Assembly (NCBI GenBank): GCA_963706575.1
Contig: CAVPNL010000002.1
Coordinates: 32,001 to 96,000, forward strand
From: an uncultured delta proteobacterium
Lineage (GTDB): Bacteria > Desulfobacterota > Desulfobacteria > Desulfobacterales > JAHEIW01
Reading direction: 5' to 3'
Length of the DNA stretch: 64,000 nt
The position numbers and the translations under genes were made by a program. The notes under the pieces are model-generated. The model was not told where the DNA came from, searched no databases, and was given only the letters and a program-made list of their open reading frames with translations. Positions 39,603-48,163 of the stretch are shown in pieces. Each line of letters starts with the position of its first letter. Within the stretch, counting starts at the first letter, position 1.

Positions 39603-39690
39603 GCCCGGGTGGCGGAAATGGTAGACGCAAGGGACTTAAAATCCCTCGGTACTAAGTGCCGTGCCGGTTCAATTCCGGCCCCGGGCACCA
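39603..39690 (+). tRNA. trnL: tRNA-Leu (anticodon TAA), long variable arm, encoded CCA
   Basis: GCCCGGG acceptor stem, AGGGA-CTTAAAA-TCCCT anticodon arm, GGTTCAATTCC T arm. Confidence 0.97.
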
Positions 39691-46906: not shown

Positions 46907-48046
46907 ATGGCAATTCCTCAGCATCTTGAAGTCATCAAACAGGGGGTGGCGGCCTGGAATAACTGGCGCATCGACAACCCCGCTGAAGAACCCGACCTGG
47001 CCGGGGCCAACCTCAGCAAAACAGACCTCAAAGAAGCCAATTTAAGAGAAACCGATCTGAGGTGGTCGGATCTGACATGTGCAAACCTGAGCAGCGCTTT
47101 CCTCAACCGGGCAGACCTGCGGCGGGCAAATCTCAGTCAGGCAAATTTTAAGCTGGCAAATCTGAGCGAAGCCAATCTGAGCGAAACCTACCTCAGCGGC
47201 GCTGATTTGAGTGAAGCGGACCTTAAAAAGGCTTTTTTTATTCGATCGGATCTGGCCAACGTCAATCTCAGCAACTCGGATTGCCAGAGGGCAGATTTTA
47301 GATGGGCCTATCTGATCAAGGCGAGATTCAATGGCGCAAATCTCAGCGGTGCCAACCTGATCGAAGCCAATTTAACCAAGGCTGAATTAAAAAAGAGCAA
47401 CCTCAGCGAAGCATTTGTCGCCTGGAGTTGTTTCGGTGATAACGACTTGAGCCAAACCCATGGGCTTGATGCGGTTAAACATTTCGGGCCTTCTACAATC
47501 GGGATCGACACCATCTATCGCTCAAGGGGCAATATTCCTGAAGGATTCCTCAGAGGCGCCGGCGTACCGGAGCACTTTATATCATATACCCGGTATTTGA
47601 ACGAAAAAGCGTTTGCGCATAGCAGTTGCTTTATCAGTTTTTCCGGAAATGATCGCAATTTTGTCGAAAAAATCGGTGAAGACCTGCAACGTGAAGGGAT
47701 CCGTTGCTGGTATGCACCTGAAGAAATGAAGATGGGGGATGCGATCCGGCAGCAGGTCGATCAGCTGATTCGCATACAGGATAAGCTGCTGGTGGTATTG
47801 TCAAAATTTTCAGTCGAAAGCCCATGGATTCAAAAAGAGGTAGCGGCGGCATTAGCAGAAGAGCGCAATCGCAAACGAACTGTTCTATTTCCGTTACGTC
47901 TGGACAACGGCAGCATGGATGCGGAAAAAGATTGGCTGGCCAATCTTCAAAAAAACCGTCAAATTTATGATTTTAGCGCCTGGCAAAATTGGGAGGCGTA
48001 TTACACTCAATTTAACTGTCTGCTTGAAGATTTAAGAAAATCCTAA
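46907..48046 (+). CDS. Pentapeptide-repeat + C-terminal TIR domain protein
   Basis: About 30 A(D/N)Lxx repeats; CFISFS..D, CWYAPE, LSKFSVESPWIQKEV, LFPLRLD. Confidence 0.9.
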   Translation: MAIPQHLEVIKQGVAAWNNWRIDNPAEEPDLAGANLSKTDLKEANLRETDLRWSDLTCANLSSAFLNRADLRRANLSQANFKLANLSEANLSETYLSGADLSEADLKKAFFIRSDLANVNLSNSDCQRADFRWAYLIKARFNGANLSGANLIEANLTKAELKKSNLSEAFVAWSCFGDNDLSQTHGLDAVKHFGPSTIGIDTIYRSRGNIPEGFLRGAGVPEHFISYTRYLNEKAFAHSSCFISFSGNDRNFVEKIGEDLQREGIRCWYAPEEMKMGDAIRQQVDQLIRIQDKLLVVLSKFSVESPWIQKEVAAALAEERNRKRTVLFPLRLDNGSMDAEKDWLANLQKNRQIYDFSAWQNWEAYYTQFNCLLEDLRKS

Positions 48047-48054
48047 CAGGTGGC

Positions 48055-48131
48055 AAACAAGAAGCACAAGGAAGTATGGAAAGGCTGGAACACCTCCCGG
48101 CGCCTTACGGTAGCCGGCTTCCTTGCGCCGC
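48055..48131 (-). ncRNA. Candidate small structured RNA with 16S 3'-end complementarity
   Basis: Promoter upstream, 11-bp closing stem, GNRA hairpin, GGAGGUGUUCCAGCC, U-rich tail, no ORF. Confidence 0.55.
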
Positions 48132-48136
48132 TCTTT

Positions 48137-48163
48137 AGTATACCACATTGTGGCATATGTCAA
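48137..48163 (-). promoter_or_regulatory. Sigma70-type promoter (extended -10)
   Basis: TTGACA (48163-48158), TG-G-TATACT (48145-48137); spacer only 15 nt; palindrome CCACATTGTGG in the spacer. Confidence 0.55.

What the first reader, a model, noticed from the sequence alone, without database searches (positions are those of the whole stretch)
48055..48163. Candidate sRNA complementary to the 16S rRNA 3' end, with no ORF (possible ribosome decoy)
Seen on the minus strand: TTGACA and TG-G-TATACT, then GAGCGGCGCAAGGAAGCCGGCUACCGUAAGGCGCCGGGAGGUGUUCCAGCCUUUCCAUACUUCCUUGUGCUUCUUGUUU. It has an 11-bp closing stem (GCGCAAGGAAG/CUUCCUUGUGC, G-U only on this strand), an inner CCGGC..CC-GUAA-GG.GCCGG hairpin with a GNRA loop, and a U-rich tail. 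GGAGGUGUUCCAGCC (48097-48083) is 14/15 complementary to the usual 16S terminus GGCUGGAUCACCUCC, far beyond a normal SD, and no start codon follows. CGGCUACC (48116-48109) is complementary to the helix-45 5' strand GGUAGCCG, though this could just reflect internal pairing. A perfect palindrome CCACATTGTGG lies between the promoter boxes. Inference: a regulated ~75-nt RNA that binds 30S subunits or pre-16S (sequestration, hibernation or maturation). I do not recognise a known family. The 15-nt promoter spacer is short, and this organism's 16S is not in the window.
Basis: partly seen in the sequence, partly recalled or inferred. Interest (0 to 1): 0.78.

Follow-up and report, generated by a model that had tools for sequence, protein, structure and literature searches.

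The report
Stand-alone phage C4-type small RNA
A conserved 67-base RNA gene of sediment sulfate-reducing bacteria descends from the antisense RNA switches of phages but has lost its neighbouring target, so it probably regulates RNAs elsewhere rather than blocking ribosomes as first proposed.

Summary
The RNA gene is real, but it is probably not a ribosome decoy. It is a 67-nt three-way-junction RNA (48129-48063, minus strand) with covarying stems and a promoter placed to start transcription at its first paired base. Relatives occur in 22 of 25 genomes of the family.

It belongs to the phage C4 lineage. It is 52/70 identical to an Rfam c4-2 member, and a model built only from its close relatives finds 5 of 8 c4-2 loci tested. 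In 9 of 15 such relatives, the P3 loop (a') and junction strand (b') match a two-part target in their own leader. The window RNA has no such leader or target.

The 14/15 match to the genome's own 16S end is real, but the GGAGG is buried in stems, binding to the free 16S tail is predicted unfavourable, and loop indels break the match in many relatives.

Best reading: a host-fixed C4-type RNA acting in trans through seeds UUCCAG and UUCCAU. The target is unidentified. The predicted site fits the genome's period-8 TGGAA palindromic repeats, a post hoc lead with weak co-occurrence. Transcription is not shown.

The parts
48158..48163 (-). -35 box TTGACA
   Evidence: TTGAC/TTGAT lies 34-37 nt before P1 in 51 of 67 type A contexts (53 have it within 45 nt, 14 lack it) and 36-38 nt in 14 of 18 type B contexts. 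Here the distance is 34.
48143..48153 (.). Palindrome CCACAATGTGG in the promoter spacer; possible operator, weakly conserved
   Evidence: Perfect in 12 of 53, degenerate in 31, absent in 10. Similar promoter motifs occur at three other sites of the genome.
48135..48142 (-). -10 region: TATACT (15-nt spacer, TG upstream) or TACTAA (17-nt spacer); either puts +1 at or just before P1
   Evidence: relatives show TA in the 17-nt register. Not called by the consensus scan. Start site inferred, not mapped.
48063..48129 (-). 67-nt three-way-junction RNA of the C4/c4-2 lineage (type A)
   Evidence: Fold; covariation; models R2 and R3; link to c4-2.
48118..48129 (-). P1, 5' strand (pairs with 48074-48063), 12 bp closing stem
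   Evidence: 9 of 12 pairs show a change on both sides in 39 model-aligned sequences.
48097..48117 (-). P2 with internal loop and CC-GNRA-GG hairpin
   Evidence: 3 of 5 P2 pairs covary; loop is GYRA in 74 of 74 sequences tallied, which with the G-U pairs fixes the strand.
48085..48093 (-). Seed a': P3 loop region GUGUUCCAG
   Evidence: Loop unpaired; UUCCAG in 45 of 57 type A-like sequences; the same position pairs with the leader in c4-2 relatives.
48075..48081 (-). Seed b': junction strand UUCCAUA
   Evidence: Unpaired except its first base; UUCCAU in 50 of 57; same role in c4-2 relatives.
48083..48097 (-). Stretch 14/15 complementary to the 16S 3' end; overlaps P2, P3 and the a' loop
   Evidence: judged incidental.
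48054..48062 (-). U-rich tail after P1, probable 3' end
   Evidence: 5 or more T in the next 10 nt in 45 of 53 promoter-adjacent type A contexts. Not called as a terminator.

Best explanation
A C4-type antisense RNA that a Desulfobacterales lineage took from a prophage or other mobile element and fixed in the chromosome as a stand-alone gene. It is transcribed from a promoter that starts at P1 and ends in the U-tract, so it needs little or no processing (inferred). It folds into a stable three-way junction (supported by covariation) that displays two short seeds, a' (UUCCAG) and b' (UUCCAU). Like its c4-2 relatives it pairs with a two-part site of the form AUGGAA-NN-CUGGAA on a nascent RNA and changes termination or folding there (inferred by homology). 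Having no cis target, it acts in trans. Of the 0.55, about 0.2 goes to the genome's period-8 TGGAA palindromic repeats as target, 0.2 to leaders of incoming c4-2 elements (host-encoded immunity), and 0.15 to an unidentified host mRNA. C4 ancestry alone is about 0.85 likely.
For: Homology: 52/70 identity to L198, which scores 41.3 bits against Rfam c4-2 (cut-off 41); model R2, built only from type A, hits 5 of 8 distinct above-cut-off c4-2 loci given to it at 30-50 bits. Recognition rule: 9 of 15 c4-2-like relatives have a 12-14-nt two-part complement of b' and a' in their own upstream leader, each with different letters, reached by 0-1 of 100 shuffles; the target linker is AA in 7 of the 9. 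Hairpins with U-runs follow the target in several leaders. Two relatives lie beside phage capsid or cement genes. Both seeds are single-stranded and conserved (45 and 50 of 57) while the letters between P3 and a' vary. 0 of 9 type A loci tested has a cis target. Neighbours differ between subgroups and the promoter distance is fixed. No Hfq or CsrA was found in this 91.8% complete genome, which suits a self-structured antisense RNA. Repeat lead: 22 of 80 predicted sites fall in 39 repeat clusters, and TGGAA is the commonest period-8 repeated 5-mer after AAAAA and AAAAT.
Against: No target is identified. No C4-like RNA lay near any of 163 viral target-like sites given to R3 (100 of 117; 63 of 63) or 30 genome sites. 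No predicted site at a convincing translation start in this genome. The exact site TATGGAANNCTGGAAY is absent in 5 of 5 relatives, and variant seeds of other families gave no clear target. The window RNA itself fails Rfam c4-2 even at E 5-10. 6 of 15 c4-2-like relatives show no clean two-part target. Repeat counts range from 2 to 338 matches among family genomes while the seeds stay the same; repeat-rich genomes of other families (G336, G141, G089) had no R3 hit and G271 and G186 have the RNA but 0 triple repeats. Transcription is not shown.
Confidence: 0.55

Rival explanations
1. A protein-binding or structural RNA: after domestication the fold, not base pairing, does the work, for example as a decoy or scaffold for an RNA-binding protein.
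For: P1 (GCGCAAGGA/UCCUUGCGC) and CC-GYRA-GG are conserved as sequence across types A and B, whose P3 regions are unrelated; the type B loop varies freely; no RNA target found.
Against: Shared P1 letters are also expected from one recent origin; the conserved single-stranded letters of type A sit exactly where c4-2 relatives pair with targets.
Confidence: 0.22
2. One reading: the RNA opens and pairs with the 3' end of 16S or pre-16S rRNA.
For: 14/15 match to the genome's own 16S end, kept in 21 of 59 type A-like sequences, with the A/G change tolerated as G-U; -7.3 kcal/mol if helix 45 is already open; a second 8-nt match to the helix 45 5' strand.
Against: GGAGG is paired; binding to the free tail or intact helix 45 is +1.1 and +0.7 kcal/mol; indels and substitutions cut the match to 9-12 of 15 in 27 of 59; GG(A/G)GG is also present at this junction in c4-2 relatives such as L198 and L411; three other genomic sites match as well or better.
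Confidence: 0.08
3. A relic or a terminator for the convergent TIR-pentapeptide gene, without a role as a free RNA.
For: It lies 16 nt past the stop codon of the convergent gene, an arrangement shared by 9 of 9 loci of the closest subgroup; P1 plus U-tail looks like a terminator.
Against: Other copies have other neighbours; inner helices covary and seeds are conserved; a promoter sits at a fixed distance; GNRA and G-U pairs favour the minus strand.
Confidence: 0.08

Closest known systems
c4-2 RNA (Rfam RF02944, clan CL00128; PMC5737381 calls it a likely distant homolog of a known RNA, passage read)
   Same: Three-way junction of about 70 nt, P2 with internal loop and GNRA cap, P3 loop and junction strand exposed; 52/70 identity to a member in the same order.
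   Different: Below the Rfam threshold; no leader, cis target or downstream gene; promoter directly at P1; kept in most genomes of a family rather than scattered on mobile DNA.
Phage P4 CI RNA with seqA/seqC (passage in PMC4825925)
   Same: Small structured antisense RNA; the paper states that CI is processed from a primary transcript and causes termination by pairing with complementary sequences.
   Different: CI targets flank it in the same transcript; here none is present in cis. Processing appears unnecessary (inferred).
Phage P1/P7 C4 antisense RNA, immI operon c4-icd-ant (Rfam RF01695; passages in PMC8198154; table entry and alignment files in PMC2864571)
   Same: Two-part a/b recognition (recalled; the supplement lists 'a1, b1 targets of C4 antisense RNA').
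   Different: No icd or ant genes and no prophage genes beside the window RNA; no Rfam C4 hit.

Membership tests
c4-2 (RF02944) | Score at or above the Rfam cut-off of 41 bits | tested here: not met
   No hit at E up to 10 locally or E up to 5 genome-wide.
C4 clan (CL00128) | Three-way junction: closing P1, GNRA-capped P2, P3 hairpin, single-stranded junction | tested here: met
   c4-2 consensus structure shown.
C4 clan (CL00128) | Sequence homology to recognised members | tested here: met
   52/70 to L198; R2 hits 5 of 8 above-cut-off loci.
C4/CI immunity systems | Two-part target in the same transcript | tested here: not met
   0 of 9 type A loci; best upstream match 8 nt for the window RNA, reached by 17 of 100 shuffles.
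C4/CI immunity systems | Lies in a prophage or mobile-element leader upstream of a controlled gene | tested here: not met
   Flanked by a convergent TIR-pentapeptide gene and a divergent gene without Pfam match; no SD within 45 nt downstream.
C4/CI immunity systems | Matured from a longer transcript (RNase P role recalled) | not testable with these tools
   Promoter spacing suggests +1 at P1; ends not mapped.
C4/CI immunity systems | Antisense pairing causes termination or translation block | not testable with these tools
   Inferred by homology only.
16S-binding decoy RNA (proposed) | Accessible SD-like strand that binds the free 16S tail | tested here: not met
   (folding prediction only).
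16S-binding decoy RNA (proposed) | Complementarity conserved beyond general sequence identity | tested here: inconclusive
   14/15 in 21 of 59 mostly near-identical sequences, 9-12 of 15 in 27, at most 11/15 in 16 type B.

The most novel reading that the evidence does not exclude
A phage immunity RNA was domesticated and re-aimed at the host's own repeats. Its two seeds, spaced as in c4-2 (3 nt on the RNA, 2 on the target), read AUGGAA-NN-CUGGAA, which is the period-8 unit of 39 palindromic repeat clusters, 25 of them between co-directional genes. The TGGAA arm is transcribed first in either direction, so the RNA could catch it before the hairpin closes and tune read-through or mRNA processing at dozens of operons at once, without Hfq.
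Probability: 0.2. Interest if true: 0.82.

Novelty: new variant of a known kind. Interest (0 to 1): 0.5.

Why it matters
It is an RNA family that Rfam misses, present in most genomes of a sediment Desulfobacterales family, and it shows a phage self-immunity switch turned into a stand-alone host gene with paralogs. The c4-2 relatives give a simple recognition code (b-AA-a) that makes its target predictable and testable. If the target is the repeat family, one RNA would address dozens of operon spacers; if it is an incoming element, it is RNA-only host immunity.

Tried and rejected
Rfam scans of the window and the locus: nothing relevant. Model R1 had a misregistered structure and was not used. 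Loose pattern scans gave mostly chance hits: of 119 loci only those with a closing stem were kept; of 40 candidates fetched after, 4 were real.

Expression: 23 runs were listed, nearly all with a small share. Contigs from 4 RNA libraries of 4 studies carry the element, and in two of them it is the only part covered. These are relatives with different flanks, the element is simply the best-conserved part, and contigs from three runs run into the promoter, so this shows neither transcription nor ends.

Target searches: own genome; family and order genomes (where the hits look like codon patterns and are not confined to RNA-bearing genomes); viral contigs; variant seeds in other families. No type A RNA in viral contigs.

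Small ORF after GGAGG: none. CsrA-site or Hfq-dependent models: neither protein found. The palindrome as a dedicated operator: mostly degenerate in relatives.

Literature: no paper for the Desulfobacterales RNA in searches; searches gave nothing that bears on it by title or abstract start. The c4-2 supplementary text of PMC5737381 and Additional file 1 of PMC2864571 could not be read; they may describe stand-alone c4 copies, which would lower the novelty.

Full report
Observation. Rfam has no match at cut-off or at E up to 10. The RNA lies antisense between a convergent pentapeptide-TIR gene (46907-48046) and a divergent gene without Pfam match.

Conservation. BLAST of 41 related genomes gave full-length homologs in the genus and family; named records with the motif are mostly Desulfobacterales. 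Two types share P1 and P2: type A (this RNA) and type B, with a different P3; a type B copy lies in this genome at G000:C4:63995-64069. Model R3 found a member in 22 of 25 family genomes, type A in 15 and type B in 15, in 17 of 151 order genomes and 3 of 151 phylum genomes; these counts include this genome. Covariation supports the fold: 6 of 23 pairs change on both sides in 18 type A sequences, 5 of 27 in 16 type B, and 14 of 23 in a 39-sequence alignment that was fitted to the model and so leans towards it. The loop is GYRA in 74 of 74 sequences. TTGAC stands 34-37 nt before P1 in 51 of 67 type A contexts, which places +1 at P1; the generic promoter scan did not call it.

The 16S hypothesis. 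But GGAGG is paired in P2 and P3, binding to the free 12-nt tail is +1.1 kcal/mol and to intact helix 45 +0.7, and only an already opened helix 45 gives -7.3. GGAGG occurs in 3 of 18 genome-derived type A sequences. Over 59 type A-like sequences, 21 keep 14/15, 11 keep 13/15 and 27 fall to 9-12; the set is enriched for near-identical metagenome copies by a pattern that demanded GG(A/G)GG, and it includes five divergent rows. Three other sites of the genome match the anti-16S 15-mer as well or better. I rate the decoy at 0.08.

The family. Divergent hits of my models are Rfam c4-2 RNAs: L198 41.3 bits, L265 50.4, against a cut-off of 41. The window RNA is 52/70 identical to L198. R2, built from type A alone, finds 5 of 8 distinct above-cut-off c4-2 loci given to it. 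Two relatives lie beside capsid or cement genes. PMC5737381 calls c4-2 a likely distant homolog of a known RNA (one passage read; supplement unreadable). PMC4825925 describes P4 CI RNA as a processed antisense RNA causing termination by pairing with flanking sequences (passage), and PMC8198154 describes P1 C4 control of icd-ant (passages). From PMC2864571 I saw the motif table and alignment files, not Additional file 1.

The recognition rule. In 9 of 15 c4-2-like relatives the upstream leader carries the complement of the junction strand (b) and of the P3 loop (a), 12-14 nt in all, reached by 0-1 of 100 shuffles, with different letters in each locus; the linker is AA in 7 of the 9. Two more show only the a box, one an 11-nt match of other geometry, three nothing. 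Hairpins with U-runs follow the target in several leaders, as expected for termination control. None of 9 type A loci has such a target; 1 of 15 stand-alone loci of all types scored above its shuffles, with atypical spacing. Yet type A conserves exactly these two exposed positions: UUCCAG in 45 and UUCCAU in 50 of 57, 3 nt apart in 39. The predicted target is AUGGAA-NN-CUGGAA.

The target. No convincing site lies at a translation start here. No cognate mobile element was found, though viruses of this lineage are probably thinly sampled. The predicted spacing equals the period of a repeat family, (NTGGAANN)n, in 39 clusters, 19 as inverted pairs and 25 between co-directional ORFs; 22 of 80 predicted sites fall in them, with summed duplex energies (about -14 to -17) at least as strong as the cis pairs (-8 to -15). 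Against this, the idea is post hoc; the exact 12-letter word ranks only within the top 9,859 words; linkers are mostly UA or UG, not AA; repeat counts vary from 2 to 338 with unchanged seeds; and presence across the order does not track the RNA. A whole-strand fold of the RNA with a repeat string showed no binding, but such folds cannot model loop-loop pairing.

Expression is not shown: contigs of four RNA libraries contain the element but cannot show strand or ends.

Shown: sequence, fold, conservation, C4-lineage homology, cis rule in relatives, absence of a cis target. Inferred: start and end, pairing in trans, effect on termination. Verdict: a new stand-alone variant of the C4/c4-2 RNAs, interest 0.5. 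Two earlier notes of this scan describe chromosomal C4-like RNAs that keep their own target; I did not test them, and my C4 reading was noted before seeing them.

Noticed in passing
G000, 39 clusters, e.g. C1:320544-320629, C3:525904-526006: Period-8 TGGAA repeats forming inverted pairs of 85-154 nt, mostly between genes; present in 25 of 25 family genomes and 29 of 151 order genomes.
   Followed up: partly
G000:C4:63995-64069 (+), L022:3996-4070: Type B paralog with the same P1 and P2, a longer P3 and a variable loop. Its UGG(A/G)A near the junction is complementary to the type A seed UUCCA (5 bp only), a possible cross-talk.
   Followed up: partly
L010, L012, L015, L019, L159-L161, L193, L196, upstream of the RNA: A type A subgroup lacks TTGAC but has TGTAAC about 90-100 nt upstream (resembles an ECF sigma promoter, recalled) and CATCTTTCCTCCTT-like letters just before P1, the complement of a strong ribosome site plus AUG.
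   Followed up: no
L084:1682-1753 (-): A second small RNA candidate 150 nt upstream of a type B copy, with the same AGCGCAAG/CTTGCGCT ends, its own promoter-like motif, no GNRA arm and a CCUCCCCUCC stretch.
   Followed up: no
L016:1501-1535 (-), genome G003: A type A copy that has lost its 5' half, in the family genome with the fewest repeat matches (2). G007 and G008 have 7 and 4 matches and keep intact copies.
   Followed up: no
G000 C5:61021 (-), C15:271699 (-), C4:41781 (-); L017, L018, L020: The TTGAC..CCACA.TGTGG.ATA promoter motif recurs before other genes, one resembling a NifU/NfuA C-terminal protein (label recalled), and before a conserved non-coding stretch in relatives.
   Followed up: partly
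window 46907-48046 (+): Pentapeptide-repeat plus TIR_2 domain protein, convergent with the RNA in 9 of 9 loci of the closest subgroup.
   Followed up: no
L198, L199, L208, L265, L408, L411, L413-L416: Desulfobacterota c4-2 leaders follow a tight layout: promoter, b-AA-a target, CG, hairpin with U-run, RNA, then usually an SD and small ORF.
   Followed up: yes
window 39603-39687 (+): tRNA gene, the only Rfam match above cut-off in the window.
   Followed up: no
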